A DNA stretch of 64,000 bases, taken from Candidatus Omnitrophota bacterium. GTDB lineage: Bacteria > Omnitrophota > Omnitrophia > Omnitrophales > Aquincolibacteriaceae. Both the position numbers and the translations under genes were made by a program. A model generated the notes under the pieces. That model ran no database searches. It worked only from the letters and a program-made list of their open reading frames with translations, and was not told where the DNA came from. Every line of letters begins with the position of its first letter. Position 1 is the first letter of the stretch. This document shows, piece by piece, positions 3,660 to 13,509 of the stretch. Location: positions 140,901 through 204,900 of the forward strand of contig DAOPYQ010000003.1 of assembly GCA_035352955.1 (NCBI GenBank), in the 5' to 3' direction.

Positions 3660-5114
3660 TTAGGCAAGTTCGCCGCGGAAGGTTTCGTGGTGAAGTCCGG
3701 TGATGCGCATTTTGAGAAATTGCCCAGAAAGATCCTTCCGCGAAACAAAGACCACACGCCGGTCCTGATCGGTCCGGCCTACGAGCTCTTCCGGATTTTC
3801 CAAATTGCGCTTTTCCACAAAAACAGAGACCGTCTTTCCGACCAACTCCCGGCTCTTCTCCCCCACGATCCCGCGCTGAAGCGTCAAAAGCTCATGATTC
3901 CGTTGCGACTTTACCTCGAACGGCACATCATCCGGGAGCCTGGAAGCCGGGGTCCCGGGGCGCACGGAATACTTGTAGATGAACGCCCCGTCGAAACGGA
4001 TCTCCTCCAAGGCACGCCGGGTGGCTTGATGATCCTCCTCCGTCTCACCGGAGAACCCGACAATGATATCGGTCGTGATCGAAATATCCGGCACCCATTC
4101 CCTCAACCGGTCGATCTTCGCTTTATACTCGGCGTAGGTATGATAACGTTTCATGAGTTTCAACATTTTATCCGAACCGGACTGAAGCGGCAGATGGAAT
4201 CTCCGGCCGATCTTGGGATTGCGCGCAACCACCCGGAACAACTCCTCATTCGCGTCCGTGGGATGGGAGGTGGTGAATGAAATACGTTCCAGCTTCTCGA
4301 TCGCACACAATCTCTCCAAAAGTTCAGCGAACCTCACCTCCCGCGCAGCGTTCAGCGCGCAACGGTCAACGGCTGGATCACTCGTTGTGCGTTGCGCGTT
4401 GCCCGTCAAACCACCGTTATACGAATTTACATTCTGTCCAAGCAGCGTGATCCATTTTACGCCGTCCGCGACAAGACGCCGGGCTTCCCGCTCAACCTCC
4501 GCGGCCGGCATGGAAACTTCGGCGCCGCGGGTCATCGGAACGACACAGAACGTGCATTCCTTGTTGCACCCCGTCATGATCGGAAGCCACGCGTGAAAAC
4601 CACTGTCGCGCTTCGTGAACTCGCTGTATTCGATGGAAATTCCGTCCTGTTTGATGCGGAGGACATGCTTTCGCGTTTCATAAACCTGACGGATCATTTC
4701 CGGAAGCTCTTTAATATGACGGGTCCCGACCATCAGATCCAGATACGGAAATCTTTTGAAGAGTTTTTCCCGGTGCTCCTCGACCATGCAACCCATAAGC
4801 CCGATGACCAGGGACGGATTTTCTTTCTTTTCCTTGCCAAGCATCCCGAGACGGCCCCACACCCGCTCTTCCGCATGCTCCCGCACCGAGCAGGTATTCA
4901 TTAAAATGATATCGGGCCGGAGAGATTCATCGGGCACCTCAACGCCCGCATGTGTCGACTGAGGCGACAGATGCCGCGCCAGATTCCTCCAAACCTCATT
5001 ATCCTCGGCCTCCGTAATGACCTGAAAGCCCGCTTTCTCCAAAATGCCGGCCGCCACCTGGCTGTCGTAGGCGTTCATCTGGCATCCGAAGGTTTTTAAT
5101 ACTACTTTTTTCAT
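3660..5114 (-). CDS. miaB: tRNA (N6-isopentenyladenosine37) methylthiotransferase, MiaB-like radical SAM enzyme
   Basis: The N-terminal MTTase motif is KTFGCQMNAYDSQ. The radical-SAM site is CNKECTFCVVP. A C-terminal TRAM domain is present. A ~20-aa insertion (LTGNAQRTTSDPAVDRCALNAAREV) sits between the radical-SAM core and the TSHP motif. Confidence 0.85.
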   Translation of the reverse strand: MKKVVLKTFGCQMNAYDSQVAAGILEKAGFQVITEAEDNEVWRNLARHLSPQSTHAGVEVPDESLRPDIILMNTCSVREHAEERVWGRLGMLGKEKKENPSLVIGLMGCMVEEHREKLFKRFPYLDLMVGTRHIKELPEMIRQVYETRKHVLRIKQDGISIEYSEFTKRDSGFHAWLPIMTGCNKECTFCVVPMTRGAEVSMPAAEVEREARRLVADGVKWITLLGQNVNSYNGGLTGNAQRTTSDPAVDRCALNAAREVRFAELLERLCAIEKLERISFTTSHPTDANEELFRVVARNPKIGRRFHLPLQSGSDKMLKLMKRYHTYAEYKAKIDRLREWVPDISITTDIIVGFSGETEEDHQATRRALEEIRFDGAFIYKYSVRPGTPASRLPDDVPFEVKSQRNHELLTLQRGIVGEKSRELVGKTVSVFVEKRNLENPEELVGRTDQDRRVVFVSRKDLSGQFLKMRITGLHHETFRGELA

Positions 5115-9940: not shown

Positions 9941-10414
9941 TCAGTGCCGCATCTTCTGCCGGACCAGACGGATAAAAAGAAGGAAAACGGCAAGAGCCGC
10001 GCAGACCTCGCAGAAGAACGCCACGACCGGATAGCTCCCGGCGCAATAGAACGGATTGAACGTAAAGGGAAAGAGCGGTTTGAGGTGAGAGTAGACAACG
10101 GAATCCAGAAGAACCGGGATCCAGAAACCAAACAGCGCGCCGGTCCACACACTTCTAAAAGTTGCCGGATAAGGAACTCCCGCAACGGCCATCACAAGGT
10201 TCACGGGACGCCGAAGCAACCAAAGAACACCCGAAAGCGCCGTCGCCCCAACGATCCCTCCGAGGAAGGTATGAAAAAACCCATGCAACCCGAAAAAGAT
10301 GGGCTCGATATCGATCGCAAGAGCGGCGAGCAAAAGGGCCGGCAAGTTTAGAGATCTCGAAAAGATCATTCCCGCCAAACCGTTGGGTCCCAGATGGAGC
10401 GGCGTGAAGGGCAC
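9941..10414 (-). CDS. integral membrane protein (possibly YdjM/DUF457-like membrane-bound hydrolase family)
   Basis: Four to five predicted TM helices. The N-terminus MPFTPLHLG resembles the start of membrane-bound metal-dependent hydrolase families. Assignment is weak. Confidence 0.45.
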   Translation of the reverse strand: MPFTPLHLGPNGLAGMIFSRSLNLPALLLAALAIDIEPIFFGLHGFFHTFLGGIVGATALSGVLWLLRRPVNLVMAVAGVPYPATFRSVWTGALFGFWIPVLLDSVVYSHLKPLFPFTFNPFYCAGSYPVVAFFCEVCAALAVFLLFIRLVRQKMRH

Positions 10415-10428
10415 GTCAGGTCACCGGT

Positions 10429-11229
10429 TCACTCGCGAACCTGGAAGGACGGGAACATGCCTTTAAGCGTCTGGCGCAGATTGGCGGAAATGCCGGATCC
10501 CTGGACCACGACGTCGCGGAGCTCTTTGTCGGGACAATGCTCGCCGCGAAAGGCCTGGAGCACATAGTTCTTGGCGCCCATAGCCGCAAGTTCAATGGCC
10601 GATTCCAAAATCTCATTTTCGGGCAGAATCACCGGATGAACCGTCGTGCGGAACTCATACGGCACGCCGCTTGCGATAAGTGCTTCCGCACTTTTACGCG
10701 GGGCCTCGCCGCTCGCCTTCACCCCCGTGACCTTTTCATACTTTGCGAAGGGCGCTTTGATGTCCATCCCGACCCACCGGCAGAGCGGCAGAACGGACGC
10801 GAGCCGATCCGGGAACATCCCGTTCGTGTGAAGCCCTACCTCGTACCCCCTATCCCGAACCGTTTTCATCCACATCCCAAGCTCGGGATGAACCGTTGGC
10901 TCCCCCCCCGAGAAAACGATACCATCAAGATGGCCTTTGCGAGAATCCAGGAAGTGCAGAATCTTTTCGAGAGGAACCAGCGGACCGCCTTGAGAAGACG
11001 GCATCGGCCAAAATTCGGAGTTGTAGCAGTAGCGACAGCGCCACAGGCAGCCCTGAAGATAGAAAACCCCGGCCAAGCGGCCGGGGAAGTCTATTGTTGT
11101 AAAGGGCGTGATGCCCGCCACGCAAATTGTCTTTAAACCGGTCGCAGCGTCCTTATTTGGACTGGCAGCCGCACCCGGCGGGTTCTTTGAAATACTTCCG
11201 CTCATCAAATTCCCCTTTTTTCCCCACAT
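10429..11229 (-). CDS. nrdG: anaerobic ribonucleoside-triphosphate reductase activating protein (radical SAM)
   Basis: ITPFTTIDFPGRLAGVFYLQGCLWRCRYCYN carries the CxxxCxxC radical-SAM cluster motif in NrdG context, followed by GIVFSGGEP. The true start may be an internal Met (M9 at 11205). The 34-aa N-terminal extension overlaps the upstream small ORF. Confidence 0.85.
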   Translation of the reverse strand: MWGKKGNLMSGSISKNPPGAAASPNKDAATGLKTICVAGITPFTTIDFPGRLAGVFYLQGCLWRCRYCYNSEFWPMPSSQGGPLVPLEKILHFLDSRKGHLDGIVFSGGEPTVHPELGMWMKTVRDRGYEVGLHTNGMFPDRLASVLPLCRWVGMDIKAPFAKYEKVTGVKASGEAPRKSAEALIASGVPYEFRTTVHPVILPENEILESAIELAAMGAKNYVLQAFRGEHCPDKELRDVVVQGSGISANLRQTLKGMFPSFQVRE

Positions 11230-11329
11230 TGAACCCAGAAACCGGACGGTGATACCCCATCACACGCGTCCAGATCTCACAACGCGTTCTTTCTTCATCC
11301 TTCAAAATCACCTGCTCCTTACTTTCCAT
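11153..11329 (-). CDS. stand-alone glycyl-radical domain (NrdD C-terminal-like), 58 aa
   Basis: MESKEQVILKDEERTRCEIWTRVMGYHRPVSGFNVGKKGEF matches the NrdD glycyl-radical loop pattern (T-R-V-x-G-Y ... F-N-x-G-K). Its ATG at 11329-11327 is preceded on the mRNA by TAA-GAAGGAGG-gtgaggggt-ATG. That is the nrdD stop, then a perfect SD, then a 9-nt spacer. Confidence 0.5.
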   Translation of the reverse strand: MESKEQVILKDEERTRCEIWTRVMGYHRPVSGFNVGKKGEFDERKYFKEPAGCGCQSK

Positions 11330-11346
11330 ACCCCTCACCCTCCTTC

Positions 11347-13410
11347 TTAGCTCTGGGACCCCGTCGTCGCACCTGCTTCGACGTTCGTTCCCGTTTGCTC
11401 CTGGATCGTTTTGTTTCGAATAAGTTCCTGATCGCACTTCGGACAATACTCGTGCTCGCCCGGGATATAGCTGTGTTTCGGACAGATCGAAAAGGTCGGC
11501 GTCACCGTAATATACGGTATCCGGTATCCCTCGAGCGCCCGTTTTACAAGCTTCTTACACGCATCCGGGCTCGACACCCGTTCTCCCATATAAAGATGGA
11601 GCACGGTCCCGCCGGTATAGCGACGCTGCAACGCTTCCTGCCGCTCCAACGCTTCGAACGGATCGTCCGTAAAAGCCACCGGCAGCTGGGAAGAATTCGT
11701 ATAGTAAGGACGCTCCGCCGTTCCCGCGTGAAGAATATCCGGGAACCGCTTGATATCCTCTTTCGCAAAACGGTAGGTCGCGCCTTCCGCGGGCGTGGCT
11801 TCCAGGTTGTACAAATTTCCGGTCTCTTCCTGGAACGCGACGATCTTGGCACGGATATAATCGAGGATCTTGAGGCCGAACTCGAAACCCGCGGGCGTGG
11901 TGATATTTTCCTTGTCGCCCGTAAAGTTACGAATGCACTCGTTGATCCCGTTCACGCCAATCGTCGAGAAATGGTTCCGGAGGGTCCCGAGATAACGCTT
12001 CGTGTACGGGAACAGCCCCGCGTCCATATGGCGCTGAATGACCTTGCGCTTGATATCAAGGCTCGCCTTCGCGATCTGGAGAAGCGCGTCGATCCGGTTA
12101 TAAAAAGCTCCCTCGTCCCCTTTTGCAAGGTAACCGATGCGAGCGCAGTTGAGCGTCACAACGCCAAGCGACCCGGTCTGTTCGGCGGAACCGAAGAGCC
12201 CGTTGCCGCGTTTCAGGAGTTCGCGAAGGTCCAATTGCAGACGGCAGCACATGGACCGGATCTGATTCGGCTTGAGATCCGAATTAAGAAAATTCTGGAA
12301 ATACGGAAGCCCGTATTTTGCGGTCATCTCGAAAAGCGGTTCGCAGTTCGGATGGTTCCAGTCGAAGTCCGGAGTAATGTTATAGGTCGGGATCGGGAAC
12401 GTGAACACCCGTCCTTTGGCATCGCCGCGCATCATGACTTCAATATAGGCCTTGTTGATCATGGCCATTTCAGCCTGAAGGTCCCCGTATGTGAAATCCA
12501 TCTCCTTACCACCCACGATCGGATGTTCGTTCCGGAGATCTTCCGGGCAAACCCAATCGAAAGTCACGTTCGTGAAAGGCGTCTGGGTTCCCCACCGGGA
12601 CGGAACGTTCAGGTTATAGATGAACTCCTGGATCGATTGTTTAACATCTTCATAGGGAAGATTGTCGATCCGGATATACGGCGCGAGATACGTATCAAAG
12701 GAAGAGAACGCCTGGGCGCCCGCCCACTCGTTCTGGAGCGTGCCGAGAAAGTTCACCATCTGGCCGACCGCAGAACTCAGGTGTTTCGGCGGTGCCGACT
12801 CAACCTTATCCGGGACCCCGTTAAAACCCTCGCGAAGTAGCGTCTTGAGCGACCAACCGGCGCAGTAGCCGGAAAGCATATCGAGGTCATGCACATGGAT
12901 GTCCCCGTGGCGGTGGGCATTGCCGACTTCTTCGGGATAAACGTGCGCAAGCCAGTAGTTCGCGATCACCTTTCCCGATATATTAAGGATCATCCCGCCA
13001 AGCGAGTAGCCCTGATTGGCATTCGCGTTCACACGCCAATCAAGCTTATAGAGGTATTCGTTCACCGACGAGGTGACATCGACCACGGTCTTCTTATCTT
13101 TCCGCAATTTCTTGTGCTGTTCGCGGTAGACGATATAAGCGCGGGCGGTCTTGAGATGATTGGAGGTGATAAGAACCTGTTCGACGATATCCTGGATCTT
13201 TTCGATGTCGAGAAAGCCCGGAGAATAACGGTTATCAATAACTTTTATAACTTCTAAAGTTAAAAGATGCGATTCCGTGCCGTCATATTCCCCCGTCGCC
13301 TGCCCCGCCTTCAACATCGCGTTGTAGATCTTGACACCGTCGAATGGAACGATGGATCCATCGCGTTTGCGGATGCTGGTGATCTTCCTCGAAAGGAACT
13401 GTTCGGCCAT
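11347..13410 (-). CDS. nrdD: anaerobic ribonucleoside-triphosphate reductase (class III RNR) catalytic subunit, lacking in-frame glycyl-radical motif
   Basis: The N-terminal ATP-cone is SRKITSIRKRDGSIVPFDGVKIYNAM. It shows long NrdD-family homology. The C-terminal Zn-ribbon is ICPKH...CPKCDQ. An SD AAAGGGGAG lies 5 nt upstream of the ATG. The frame ends 27 aa after CPKC without an RVxGY motif. Confidence 0.9.
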   Translation of the reverse strand: MAEQFLSRKITSIRKRDGSIVPFDGVKIYNAMLKAGQATGEYDGTESHLLTLEVIKVIDNRYSPGFLDIEKIQDIVEQVLITSNHLKTARAYIVYREQHKKLRKDKKTVVDVTSSVNEYLYKLDWRVNANANQGYSLGGMILNISGKVIANYWLAHVYPEEVGNAHRHGDIHVHDLDMLSGYCAGWSLKTLLREGFNGVPDKVESAPPKHLSSAVGQMVNFLGTLQNEWAGAQAFSSFDTYLAPYIRIDNLPYEDVKQSIQEFIYNLNVPSRWGTQTPFTNVTFDWVCPEDLRNEHPIVGGKEMDFTYGDLQAEMAMINKAYIEVMMRGDAKGRVFTFPIPTYNITPDFDWNHPNCEPLFEMTAKYGLPYFQNFLNSDLKPNQIRSMCCRLQLDLRELLKRGNGLFGSAEQTGSLGVVTLNCARIGYLAKGDEGAFYNRIDALLQIAKASLDIKRKVIQRHMDAGLFPYTKRYLGTLRNHFSTIGVNGINECIRNFTGDKENITTPAGFEFGLKILDYIRAKIVAFQEETGNLYNLEATPAEGATYRFAKEDIKRFPDILHAGTAERPYYTNSSQLPVAFTDDPFEALERQEALQRRYTGGTVLHLYMGERVSSPDACKKLVKRALEGYRIPYITVTPTFSICPKHSYIPGEHEYCPKCDQELIRNKTIQEQTGTNVEAGATTGSQS

Positions 13411-13493
13411 TATTGCTCCCCTTTCATGGGTTCTTTTCTCCCAGCTATAGCATCGGCCAATTCGCCAGATATTGTAGCTGTTTTTTGCCCCTC

Positions 13494-13509
13494 ATACCAT
13501 ATCTAGTGT
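13494..13509. promoter_or_regulatory. candidate NrdR box upstream of nrdD
   Basis: ATACCATATCTAGTGT matches about 13 of 16 positions of the NrdR-box consensus (acaCwAtATaTwGtgt). It lies about 85 nt upstream of the nrdD ATG. No second box was recognised. Confidence 0.25.

What the first reader, a model, noticed from the sequence alone, without database searches (positions are those of the whole stretch)
11153..11460. Class III ribonucleotide reductase appears split: NrdD ends after the Zn-ribbon and the glycyl-radical loop is a separate 58-codon ORF with its own strong RBS
The 687-aa NrdD ORF ends ...ICPKHSYIPGEHEYCPKCDQELIRNKTIQEQTGTNVEAGATTGSQS-TAA. A Gly/Thr/Ser-rich tail of 27 aa follows the last Cys of the Zn ribbon, and there is no R-V-x-G-Y motif in frame. 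The mRNA reads TAA GAAGGAGG gtgaggggt ATG, then GAA AGT AAG in another frame. This encodes MESKEQVILKDEERTRCEIWTRVMGYHRPVSGFNVGKKGEFDERKYFKEPAGCGCQSK. That sequence reproduces the canonical NrdD C-terminal glycyl-radical signature (T-R-V-x-G-Y ... P ... F-N-x-G-K-x-x-E). The break falls exactly at the domain boundary between the Zn-ribbon and the radical loop. It is accompanied by a perfect Shine-Dalgarno with optimal spacing. This is more consistent with a genuinely separate small subunit than with a random indel. Such a subunit would be a dedicated glycyl-radical 'spare part' for NrdD, analogous to GrcA/YfiD for pyruvate formate-lyase. To my knowledge no such arrangement is described for class III RNR. 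The small ORF in turn overlaps the nrdG start by 50-75 nt, unless nrdG initiates at an internal codon. This suggests tight coupling of the nrdD / Gly-radical peptide / nrdG trio.
Basis: partly seen in the sequence, partly recalled or inferred. Interest (0 to 1): 0.65.

Follow-up and report, generated by a model that had tools for sequence, protein, structure and literature searches.

The report
Two-piece anaerobic ribonucleotide reductase
The oxygen-sensitive enzyme that makes DNA building blocks is here encoded in two pieces, with the short loop that carries its catalytic radical made as a separate 58-residue protein; the same split is conserved in hundreds of bacterial species but I found no paper that describes it.

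Summary
On the minus strand, nrdD (13410-11347, 687 aa) stops 28 residues after its zinc site. A Shine-Dalgarno site and ATG then open a 58-codon ORF (11329-11153) that matches only the last 31 positions of the NrdD Pfam model, the glycyl-radical loop. nrdG follows and overlaps it.

It is not an indel, pseudogene or frameshift. In 77 of 77 related loci with upstream DNA, a truncated nrdD precedes an ATG-started 53-79-aa ORF. All three relative frames and all three stop codons occur, and spacers run from -41 to +298 nt. dN/dS is 0.02-0.06. All 120 closest NrdD homologues lack the glycine motif. The host species include Cupriavidus necator H16, Ralstonia, Paracoccus and Endoriftia.

More distant relatives are fused, so the gene broke inside a variable linker.

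The most likely reading is a two-chain class III reductase whose small chain is the obligatory radical carrier and the substrate of NrdG. It works in trans like GrcA but is not a GrcA-family member, and it is not merely a spare.

I found no description in the searchable literature. Databases give it only generic names.

The parts
11347..13410 (-). nrdD large chain (687 aa): ATP-cone, catalytic barrel and zinc site. It has no glycyl-radical motif.
   Evidence: Pfam NRDD 594 bits (model 2-529 of 562) plus ATP-cone. NCBIfam NF006126 scores 1132 bits against a cut-off of 548. Solved NrdDs align only as far as the zinc site.
13108..13377 (-). ATP-cone (residues 12-101 of NrdD)
   Evidence: PF03477, E 6.9e-21.
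12241..12255 (-). Finger-loop motif S-M-C-C-R (residues 386-390). This is the expected site of the thiyl-radical cysteine.
   Evidence: Located by regex. Invariant in 22 of 22 aligned homologues. That Met-Cys-Cys marks formate-type NrdD is from my own knowledge of E. coli NrdD and was not tested.
11434..11484 (-). Zinc-site motif C-P-K-H-x10-C-P-K-C (residues 643-659)
   Evidence: The Cys, His, Cys and Cys are invariant in 22 of 22. It aligns to the Cys4 site of P. copri NrdD.
11350..11433 (-). 28-residue tail of the large chain, the former linker. It is variable in length and sequence among relatives.
   Evidence: Tails of 8-35 aa (median 18) in 120 homologues. AF2 pLDDT falls to 49 at residues 681-690.
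11339..11346 (-). Shine-Dalgarno site GAAGGAGG, 9 nt upstream of the small ORF's ATG
   Evidence: An SD-like core precedes the small ORF in 78 of 80 related loci.
11153..11329 (-). Small chain (58 aa): the glycyl-radical loop of NrdD as a separate protein
   Evidence: Pfam NRDD model 532-562 of 562, above the gathering score. It is 100% identical to an Omnitrophota MAG protein, and 120 of the 120 best hits are 52-102 aa. 149 of the 150 best representatives are 51-118 aa. dN/dS is 0.02-0.06.
11255..11257 (-). Codon of Gly25 in T-R-V-M-G-Y, the predicted radical site
   Evidence: Invariant in 31 of 31. It sits at the tip of a beta-hairpin (strands 705-710 and 713-716 of the artificial fusion) in the AF2 model.
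11279..11281 (-). Codon of Cys17, an invariant cysteine 8 residues before the glycine. Its role is unknown.
   Evidence: Invariant. Absent in the more distant fused relative of G. subterraneus.
10429..11205 (-). nrdG activase (radical SAM). An alternative start lies at 11229. It overlaps the small ORF by 53 or 77 nt.
   Evidence: TIGR02495 NrdG2 scores 180.7 bits against a cut-off of 131.15. nrdG lies downstream in 78 of 80 loci, with a median overlap of 47 nt.
13464..13509 (-). Two NrdR-box-like palindromes (ACACTAGATATGGTAT and CTACAATATCTGGCG) upstream of nrdD
   Evidence: Read from the sequence. The resemblance to the NrdR box consensus is from my own knowledge and was not tested statistically.

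Best explanation
This is a class III (anaerobic) ribonucleotide reductase built from two polypeptides.

- The 687-aa chain supplies the ATP-cone, the catalytic barrel with its Cys finger loop, and the zinc site.
- The 58-aa chain supplies the beta-hairpin whose glycine (Gly25) holds the stable radical.

The three genes nrdD-large, nrdD-small and nrdG are transcribed together. The small ORF has its own ribosome-binding site, and nrdG starts inside the small ORF's 3' end, which suggests translational coupling.

The following steps are inferred, not shown. NrdG uses S-adenosylmethionine to abstract a hydrogen from Gly25 of the small chain. The hairpin then sits in the barrel of the large chain next to the finger-loop cysteine, as the C-terminal domain does in single-chain NrdD, and hands the radical to that cysteine at each turnover. 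Because the large chain has no glycine loop, the small chain is obligatory, not a back-up.

The arrangement arose by fission of a fused nrdD inside a variable linker between the zinc site and the hairpin. It then spread widely across bacteria.
For: Shown here:

- The two ORFs tile the NrdD profile without overlap.
- The same layout occurs in 77 of 77 related loci that have upstream DNA. Relative frames 0/1/2 number 20/23/34. Stop codons are TGA 43, TAA 25, TAG 9. Spacers run from -41 to +298 nt. The small ORFs start with ATG and are 53-79 aa. An SD-like site is present in 78 of 80, and nrdG lies downstream in 78 of 80.
- At least 596 species-representative genomes hold a close relative of the small protein; that scan also matches fused nrdD genes, and split was checked only for the 80 loci kept.
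- The 50%-identity library holds 458 clusters at E <= 1e-10, and 149 of the best 150 are 51-118 aa.
- All 120 closest homologues of the large chain (74-92% identity) lack R-V-x-G-Y and end 8-35 aa after CxxC.
- Starting from the large chain, Endoriftia persephone and Rhodocista pekingensis show large, then a 58/59-aa PF13597 gene, then a radical-SAM gene.
- In the small ORF, synonymous sites are near saturation and dN/dS is 0.02-0.06.
- Large- and small-chain distances co-vary: r = 0.58, with 0 of 2000 permutations reaching it, and the mean divergence is equal at 0.25 versus 0.24.
- Fused relatives exist, with linkers from 3 to about 40 aa. The 50%-identical NrdD of G. subterraneus is fused.
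- An AF2 model of an artificial fusion has mean pLDDT 78.8 and pTM 0.75, with the small part at 70-83 and Gly25 at a hairpin tip. Its best structural matches are solved NrdDs.
- In C. necator H16 the three genes are annotated separately, with a 142-nt spacer between the large and small genes. This nrdDG region is reported as needed for full denitrification (PMC2864759, citing Siedow 1999).

[quoted passage not shown] This makes delivery in trans plausible.
Against: - There is no direct evidence of translation, of complex formation, or that the radical sits on the small chain.
- The AF2 model is of an artificial fusion with an unpaired alignment. No coordinates were available, so the Gly-to-Cys distance could not be measured. 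The finger loop itself has pLDDT below 50.
- Only 64 kb of this genome is visible, so a second, single-chain nrdD elsewhere cannot be excluded.
- The primary C. necator genetics paper could not be read. I therefore do not know whether its deletions or complementing clones included the small ORF.
Confidence: 0.85

Rival explanations
1. Sequencing or assembly indel, or a recent pseudogene. On this view the real gene is one continuous nrdD and the break is an artefact or decay.
For: The small frame stays open upstream to 11446 and overlaps the nrdD tail, so a single indel could fuse the frames in this window. Fused relatives exist.
Against: The split recurs in 77 of 77 independent loci, from isolates and MAGs of several phyla. 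It occurs in every frame relation and with spacers up to 298 nt. The upstream open stretch is not conserved. dN/dS is 0.02-0.06. All 120 closest large chains are truncated. Complete isolate genomes are annotated the same way.
Confidence: 0.02
2. Programmed frameshifting or stop-codon read-through makes a single fused NrdD, and the two ORFs are only apparent.
For: In 20 of 77 loci the two ORFs are in the same frame. In about 16 of these only one stop codon separates them.
Against: The other 57 loci are in the +1 or +2 frame. Twelve have spacers over 100 nt, and 11 overlap. All three stop codons are used, and no conserved slippery or recoding context is possible across such different junctions. 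Every small ORF has its own ATG, and 78 of 80 have an SD. Rfam finds nothing in the window.
Confidence: 0.03
3. A true GrcA-style spare part. On this view the organism has a normal single-chain NrdD elsewhere, and the small protein only repairs it after oxygen cleavage. The truncated large ORF here would be inactive or do something else.
For: Orphan small genes occur away from any nrdD. One is on A. vinosum plasmid pALVIN01. Another lies in L077 next to rubrerythrin, an oxidative-stress protein. They keep all invariant residues. Experts have speculated that spare parts exist for other glycyl radical enzymes (PMC8683613).
Against: The small gene is almost always sandwiched between a truncated nrdD and nrdG. 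The large chain is under strong conservation, with the finger loop and zinc ligands invariant, and passes the NrdD equivalog cut-off. No close large-chain homologue carries its own glycine loop. The small protein hits the NrdD family only, not the PFL/GrcA family.
Confidence: 0.07

Closest known systems
Single-chain class III ribonucleotide reductase NrdD with its activase NrdG (phage T4, E. coli, T. maritima, P. copri, S. thermophilus)
   Same: Same family and the same parts: ATP-cone, barrel with Cys finger loop, zinc site, R-V-x-G-Y glycine loop, and an adjacent radical-SAM activase.
   Different: In all solved and described NrdDs, the zinc site and glycine loop form one C-terminal domain of the same chain (PMC11226230). 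Here the chain ends after the zinc site, and the glycine loop is a separate gene product.
GrcA/YfiD of E. coli and Y06I of phage T4, the autonomous glycyl radical cofactors for pyruvate formate-lyase
   Same: Each is a small stand-alone protein that carries a glycyl-radical loop, is activated by the cognate activase, and works in trans with a large catalytic chain that lacks an intact loop (PMC8683613).
   Different: GrcA belongs to the PFL glycyl-radical family, whereas this protein matches only NrdD. PFL keeps its own loop and GrcA is a repair part, whereas here the large chain never has one. GrcA is 14.3 kDa (PMC8683613), whereas this protein is 58 aa.
Split class II reductase NrdJa/NrdJb (P. 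aeruginosa and relatives)
   Same: It is a ribonucleotide reductase whose C-terminal part, including a zinc-finger region, is encoded by a second adjacent gene, and both pieces are needed (PMC9669993).
   Different: It belongs to a different class and uses a different cofactor (adenosylcobalamin). The split-off piece carries redox and zinc domains, not the radical site.
Class I reductase, NrdA plus NrdB
   Same: The stable radical is stored on a separate, smaller subunit and passed to the catalytic chain.
   Different: The proteins and chemistry are unrelated. NrdB is a di-metal ferritin-like protein with a tyrosyl or metal-centred oxidant, not a glycine-loop peptide made by a radical-SAM enzyme. 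This row rests on general knowledge.
Phage nrd genes split by introns, inteins or homing-endonuclease genes (for example T4 nrdD intron, Aeh1 nrdA-a/nrdA-b)
   Same: Reductase genes in pieces that still give a working enzyme (PMC3653736).
   Different: Those breaks are caused by mobile elements and are lineage-specific. Here no mobile element lies at the junction, the spacer is 17 nt, and the break is conserved across phyla. No phage record matched the small protein.

Membership tests
Class III ribonucleotide reductase NrdD | Homology to the NrdD catalytic barrel above curated thresholds | tested here: met
   Pfam NRDD 594.4 bits against 26.2. NCBIfam NF006126 1132 bits against 548. TIGR02487 491 bits against 326. 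The AF2 model matches solved NrdDs, TM 0.6-0.74 normalised to the target.
Class III ribonucleotide reductase NrdD | Finger-loop cysteine for the thiyl radical | tested here: met
   S-M-C-C-R at residues 386-390, invariant in 22 of 22. Sequence-level evidence only.
Class III ribonucleotide reductase NrdD | C-terminal zinc site | tested here: met
   C-x2-H-x10-C-x2-C at residues 643-659, invariant. It aligns to the Cys4 site of P. copri NrdD. Metal binding was not tested.
Class III ribonucleotide reductase NrdD | Glycyl-radical motif R-V-x-G-Y on the same polypeptide as the barrel | tested here: not met
   The motif is absent from the 687-aa chain and from all 120 closest homologues. It is present on the separate 58-aa ORF.
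Class III ribonucleotide reductase NrdD | Cognate radical-SAM activase NrdG encoded alongside | tested here: met
   TIGR02495 NrdG2 180.7 bits against 131.15. nrdG is downstream in 78 of 80 loci.
Class III ribonucleotide reductase NrdD | Glycyl radical actually formed, and ribonucleotide reduction activity | not testable with these tools
   This needs anaerobic biochemistry and EPR.
GrcA/YfiD autonomous glycyl radical cofactor | Homology to the PFL-type glycyl-radical domain (Pfam Gly_radical) | tested here: not met
   A Pfam scan at E <= 0.1 returns only NRDD for the small ORF. NCBIfam returns only NrdD models.
GrcA/YfiD autonomous glycyl radical cofactor | The partner enzyme keeps its own glycine loop, and the small protein replaces it only after damage | tested here: not met
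   The partner chain lacks the loop in the window and in 120 of 120 close homologues.
GrcA/YfiD autonomous glycyl radical cofactor | A stand-alone small protein with a glycine loop that acts in trans on a large chain | tested here: inconclusive
   The stand-alone gene with a conserved loop is shown. Action in trans is inferred, not shown.
Split reductase of the NrdJa/NrdJb kind | Class II (cobalamin) catalytic chain | tested here: not met
   The best models are all class III. Class II and class I models match only the ATP-cone.

The most novel reading that the evidence does not exclude
The small chain may be an exchangeable radical cartridge. On this reading NrdG charges the free 6.6-kDa peptide, which then plugs into the large chain. 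After oxygen cleaves it at the glycine, only the peptide is discarded and a fresh one is inserted, so the 77-kDa catalytic chain survives oxygen pulses. Orphan extra copies, on an A. vinosum plasmid and next to rubrerythrin in L077, would add to the pool. This would be the first spare-part logic outside pyruvate formate-lyase, and it would be built into the enzyme's normal architecture. It would also offer a natural minimal substrate for studying how glycyl-radical activases reach their buried target.
Probability: 0.3. Interest if true: 0.85.

Novelty: new variant of a known kind. Interest (0 to 1): 0.68.

Why it matters
Glycyl radical enzymes are all described as carrying their radical glycine on the catalytic chain. 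The only validated stand-alone glycine-loop proteins are GrcA/YfiD and T4 Y06I, both for pyruvate formate-lyase. Specialists have written that spare parts for other family members are only a possibility (PMC8683613). A 2026 review lists small subunits only for HPAD, BSS and MASS, and none of those carries the glycine.

Here a whole clade of anaerobic ribonucleotide reductases places the glycine loop on its own 53-79-residue protein. The clade is present in hundreds of species, including tractable ones such as Cupriavidus necator H16, Ralstonia solanacearum and Paracoccus denitrificans.

This has three consequences.

- It gives a natural system for asking how the activase accesses a loop that is buried in the active enzyme.
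- It allows a test of whether the radical carrier can be exchanged after oxygen damage.
- It shows what holds such a peptide in place. An invariant L-x-D-x-E-R...C motif precedes the hairpin.

It also matters for annotation. The small gene is often unannotated or called 'oxidoreductase' or 'hypothetical', and the large gene alone is taken as a complete NrdD.

Tried and rejected
- **Rfam:** a scan of the whole window gave no hits, so there is no intron or recoding element.
- **PDB sequence search:** the small ORF gave no hits even at E <= 1.
- **Phage collection:** no match to the small protein.
- **AF2, single sequence:** the artificial fusion gave a useless model, pLDDT 33.
- **First block alignment:** A2 was mis-aligned, because MAFFT pushed the large-chain zinc sites onto the small-chain columns. 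I fixed this by adding natural fused fragments as bridging rows in A4.
- **L083:** this looked like a full-length close fused relative, but it is a scaffold that joins two different nrdD 3' ends across an N-gap. I therefore have no complete close fused gene, and could not decide between a single fission and several, or exclude later re-fusion.
- **P0220:** this 988-aa hit of the small ORF is an unrelated repeat protein that shares only 'RCEVWTR'.
- **Siedow et al. 1999:** the primary genetics paper on the C. necator nrdD/nrdG region could not be opened by PMC id or DOI.
- **Literature:** nine full-text searches and eleven papers read in part gave no description of a split NrdD. The readings were.
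- **Cys17 as zinc ligand:** I considered whether the invariant Cys17 is a fourth zinc ligand bridging the two chains. It is neither supported nor excluded. The C-x2-H...C-x2-C set is already complete, and a relative that has lost the zinc ligands keeps this Cys.


Full report
**What is in the window**

All genes of interest lie on the minus strand.

- nrdD runs from 13410 to 11347 and encodes 687 aa. It has an ATP-cone (PF03477) and matches the Pfam NRDD model over positions 2-529 of 562. It passes the NCBIfam equivalog NF006126 with 1132 bits against a cut-off of 548.
- It contains the finger-loop motif S-M-C-C-R (residues 386-390) and a zinc-site motif C-P-K-H-x10-C-P-K-C (residues 643-659). 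It then ends after a further 28 residues.
- The stop codon TAA (11349-11347) is followed at once by GAAGGAGG (11346-11339), 9 nt, and ATG at 11329.
- The 58-codon ORF 11329-11153 matches NRDD model positions 532-562, E 1.4e-7, above the gathering score. So the two ORFs tile the family model with no overlap.
- The small protein contains T-R-V-M-G-Y, the class III glycyl-radical signature.
- nrdG (TIGR02495, 180.7 bits against 131.15) opens at ATG 11205 or 11229 and therefore overlaps the small ORF by 53 or 77 nt.

The tail is 28 aa, not 27.

**Is the split real?**

A search with the small protein returned 6309 hits. The best 120 are all 52-102 aa, including a 100% identical protein from an Omnitrophota MAG. 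They also include proteins from isolates such as Chitinilyticum and Formivibrio.

An alignment of 31 of them shows an invariant core: L-x-D-x-E-R-x-x-C-E-[VI]-W-T-R-V-M-G-Y-H-R-P...F-N-x-G-K-x-x-E...E-R...F-x-E.

In those 80 loci:

- 77 have upstream DNA, and in all 77 an nrdD ORF ends just before the small ORF.
- The window NrdD aligns up to residues 660-686 of its 687.
- The relative reading frames 0, 1 and 2 occur 20, 23 and 34 times.
- The nrdD stop codon is TGA 43 times, TAA 25 times and TAG 9 times.
- The distance from stop to ATG runs from -41 to +298 nt, with a median of 32.
- The small ORFs are 53-79 aa, start with ATG, and have an SD-like core in 78 of 80.
- nrdG follows in 78 of 80, usually overlapping, with a median overlap of 47 nt.

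This variety of junctions excludes a shared indel, a frameshift site and stop-codon read-through.

Among the Omnitrophota loci, synonymous sites of the small ORF are near saturation while dN/dS is 0.02-0.06. The ORF is therefore translated and constrained.

Pairwise distances of the large and small chains co-vary across 52 loci. The correlation is r = 0.58, and none of 2000 permutations reaches it. The two chains diverge at the same mean rate, 0.25 and 0.24.

In the 50%-identity library of 1.84 billion proteins, there are 1770 clusters at E <= 1e-3 and 458 at E <= 1e-10. Of the best 150, 149 are 51-118 aa. The exception is an unrelated repeat protein.

**The view from the large chain**

The 120 best homologues of the window NrdD are 74-92% identical. 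They come from Omnitrophota and from Alpha-, Beta- and Gammaproteobacteria. All lack R-V-x-G-Y and end 8-35 aa (median 18) after the C-x-x-C.

I looked up two of them in their contigs. Candidatus Endoriftia persephone and Rhodocista pekingensis both show a large chain (681 or 675 aa), then a 58- or 59-aa gene hit by PF13597, then a radical-SAM gene.

On the C. necator H16 megaplasmid pHG1, RefSeq annotates three genes:

- a 676-aa 'ribonucleoside triphosphate reductase';
- after a 142-nt spacer, a 66-aa 'nrdD';
- the activase.

The same small ORF was deposited in 2003 as 'Oxidoreductase'.

The C. metallidurans CH34 genome paper lists NrdDG as Rmet_5137 and Rmet_5139, skipping the gene between them. 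It also cites the nrdDG region of H16 as essential for complete denitrification (PMC2864759).

In the plasmid collection, 161 records hold the small gene and 164 hold the large one. Most are Ralstonia megaplasmids, with others from Bradyrhizobium, Cupriavidus and Paracoccus.

**Origin**

More distant relatives are fused.

- The NrdD of Geoalkalibacter subterraneus is about 50% identical in the core and reads ...CPHCGKDAEVWSRVTGF....
- All solved NrdDs are single chains.
- Metagenomic fragments of close relatives are fused too, with linkers of different length. Some have three residues between C-x-x-C and C-E-[IV]-W (P0123, P0127). Others have 20-40 residues that already contain the L-x-[DE]-[DE]-R-x-x-C motif (P0126, P0129, P0130).

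The simplest history is a short linker, then a long linker, then fission within the linker. The tail of the large chain and the N-terminus of the small chain would be the two halves of that linker.

I could not obtain a complete close fused gene. L083 turned out to be a chimeric scaffold. The number and direction of events are therefore unresolved.

**How it most likely works**

The following are shown:

- the gene layout;
- the conservation of both chains;
- the complementarity of the two chains to the family profile;
- the presence of the activase.

The rest is inferred. [quoted passage not shown] It behaves as a mobile, largely rigid unit (PMC11226230). The domain must leave the barrel for the activase to reach the glycine; this is general knowledge of the enzyme family.

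In the split enzyme, the zinc site stays on the large chain. The hairpin and the following helix and tail are a free peptide. I infer that NrdG abstracts hydrogen from Gly25 of this peptide, and that the hairpin occupies the barrel next to the finger-loop cysteine.

An AF2 model of an artificial fusion supports this only loosely. I built it with an alignment of large chains, small chains and natural fused fragments as bridges (A4). It has mean pLDDT 78.8 and pTM 0.75, with 70-83 for the core of the small part. Gly25 sits at the tip of a beta-hairpin, and the best structural matches are solved NrdDs.

The model's limits are:

- no coordinates were available, so the Gly-to-Cys distance is unknown;
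- the finger loop is modelled with low confidence;
- the alignment was unpaired.

**Spare part or subunit?**

The functional analogy is apt: both are a stand-alone glycine loop, activated by the cognate activase, working in trans. Membership fails, however.

- The protein matches only the NrdD family.
- Its partner has no loop of its own. It is therefore an obligatory subunit.

The spare-part idea survives as a possible selective advantage. After oxygen cleavage, only a 6.6-kDa peptide would need replacing.

Two orphan copies are compatible with an extra pool. One is on A. vinosum plasmid pALVIN01 beside a CHAP-domain gene. The other lies between a helicase gene and rubrerythrin in L077. Both keep every invariant residue. 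This is speculation, and I give it a probability of 0.3.

**Known or new?**

Nine full-text searches and partial reading of eleven papers gave no description of a split NrdD. The papers read were:

- RNR evolution and database papers;
- the P. copri structure paper;
- a paper on a new class of aminoacyl radical enzymes;
- a 2026 review of glycyl radical enzymes, which lists small subunits only for HPAD, BSS and MASS;
- a survey of split RNR genes in phages, where the breaks are due to introns, inteins and endonuclease genes;
- the GrcA paper.

The GrcA paper states that only two spare-part proteins, both for PFL, have been validated, and that others are merely possible.

There are two limits to this conclusion. 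Only open-access text is searchable, and the 1999 C. necator paper could not be read. Databases do carry the ORF, under the names 'anaerobic ribonucleoside-triphosphate reductase', 'oxidoreductase' or 'hypothetical protein'.

I therefore rate it a new variant of a known kind. It is ordinary in its parts and unusual in its architecture. It is widespread and, as far as I can tell, unremarked.

**Rivals**

- Indel or pseudogene: 0.02.
- Recoding to a fused protein: 0.03.
- Pure spare part for a single-chain NrdD encoded elsewhere: 0.07.

All three are contradicted by the junction diversity, the selection data and the uniform truncation of close homologues. Only the last cannot be fully excluded from a 64-kb window.

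Noticed in passing
window 13464-13509 (- strand): Two 15-16-nt palindrome-like sites, ACACTAGATATGGTAT and CTACAATATCTGGCG, lie about 31 nt apart just upstream of nrdD. They resemble tandem NrdR repressor boxes, a resemblance drawn from memory. A TTGACA hexamer lies immediately upstream.
   Followed up: partly
L082 3498-3707 (A. vinosum plasmid pALVIN01); L077 3980-4162: Orphan copies of the small glycine-loop gene have no nrdD or nrdG nearby. One sits beside a CHAP-domain gene on a plasmid. The other lies between a UvrD-like helicase gene and rubrerythrin. Both keep all invariant residues.
   Followed up: partly
window 11279-11281 (Cys17 of the small ORF); alignments A1, A3, A4: A cysteine 8 residues before the radical glycine is invariant in split forms and present in most close fused forms. 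It is Thr or Ala in others, and it is kept in a fragment that has lost the zinc ligands. Its role is unknown. The L-x-D-x-E-R motif just before it is present only in split and long-linker forms.
   Followed up: partly
window 11153-11176 (C-terminus ...AGCGCQSK) and alignment A1: Many small chains end in a cysteine-rich tail (GCGC, CGCSK, CCQ, CxxxC). Many betaproteobacterial ones have none. This could be a metal or redox site, or chance.
   Followed up: no
protein P0420: A split-type large chain of 1012 aa carries a LAGLIDADG intein domain (PF14528). The split clade is therefore also a target of mobile elements elsewhere in the gene.
   Followed up: no
L083 (GCA_002306985.1, DBTJ01000051.1) 3700-4000: A run of N joins two different nrdD 3' ends. 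The sequence TDDPF...GGTV.HLY occurs twice in diverged form, so this MAG scaffold is probably chimeric. The downstream piece is a fused-type C-terminus.
   Followed up: partly
protein P0220: A 988-aa protein with ten repeats that each contain G-R-C-E-V-W-T-R scored 75 bits against the small ORF. It is a cysteine-rich repeat protein unrelated to NrdD. It shows that the short motif can give false hits.
   Followed up: yes
window 9941-10414 (- strand): A 157-aa ORF starts 15 nt after the nrdG stop. It reads as hydrophobic, has no Pfam match, and may be co-transcribed with the nrd genes. Downstream lie a GNAT acetyltransferase, a flavodoxin-fold FMN reductase and a PPDK_N-domain protein.
   Followed up: partly
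PMC2864759 (C. metallidurans CH34 genome paper): NrdDG are given as Rmet_5137 and Rmet_5139. The gene between them, presumably the small chain, is passed over without comment. In many PLSDB rows the small gene has no annotation at all.
   Followed up: no
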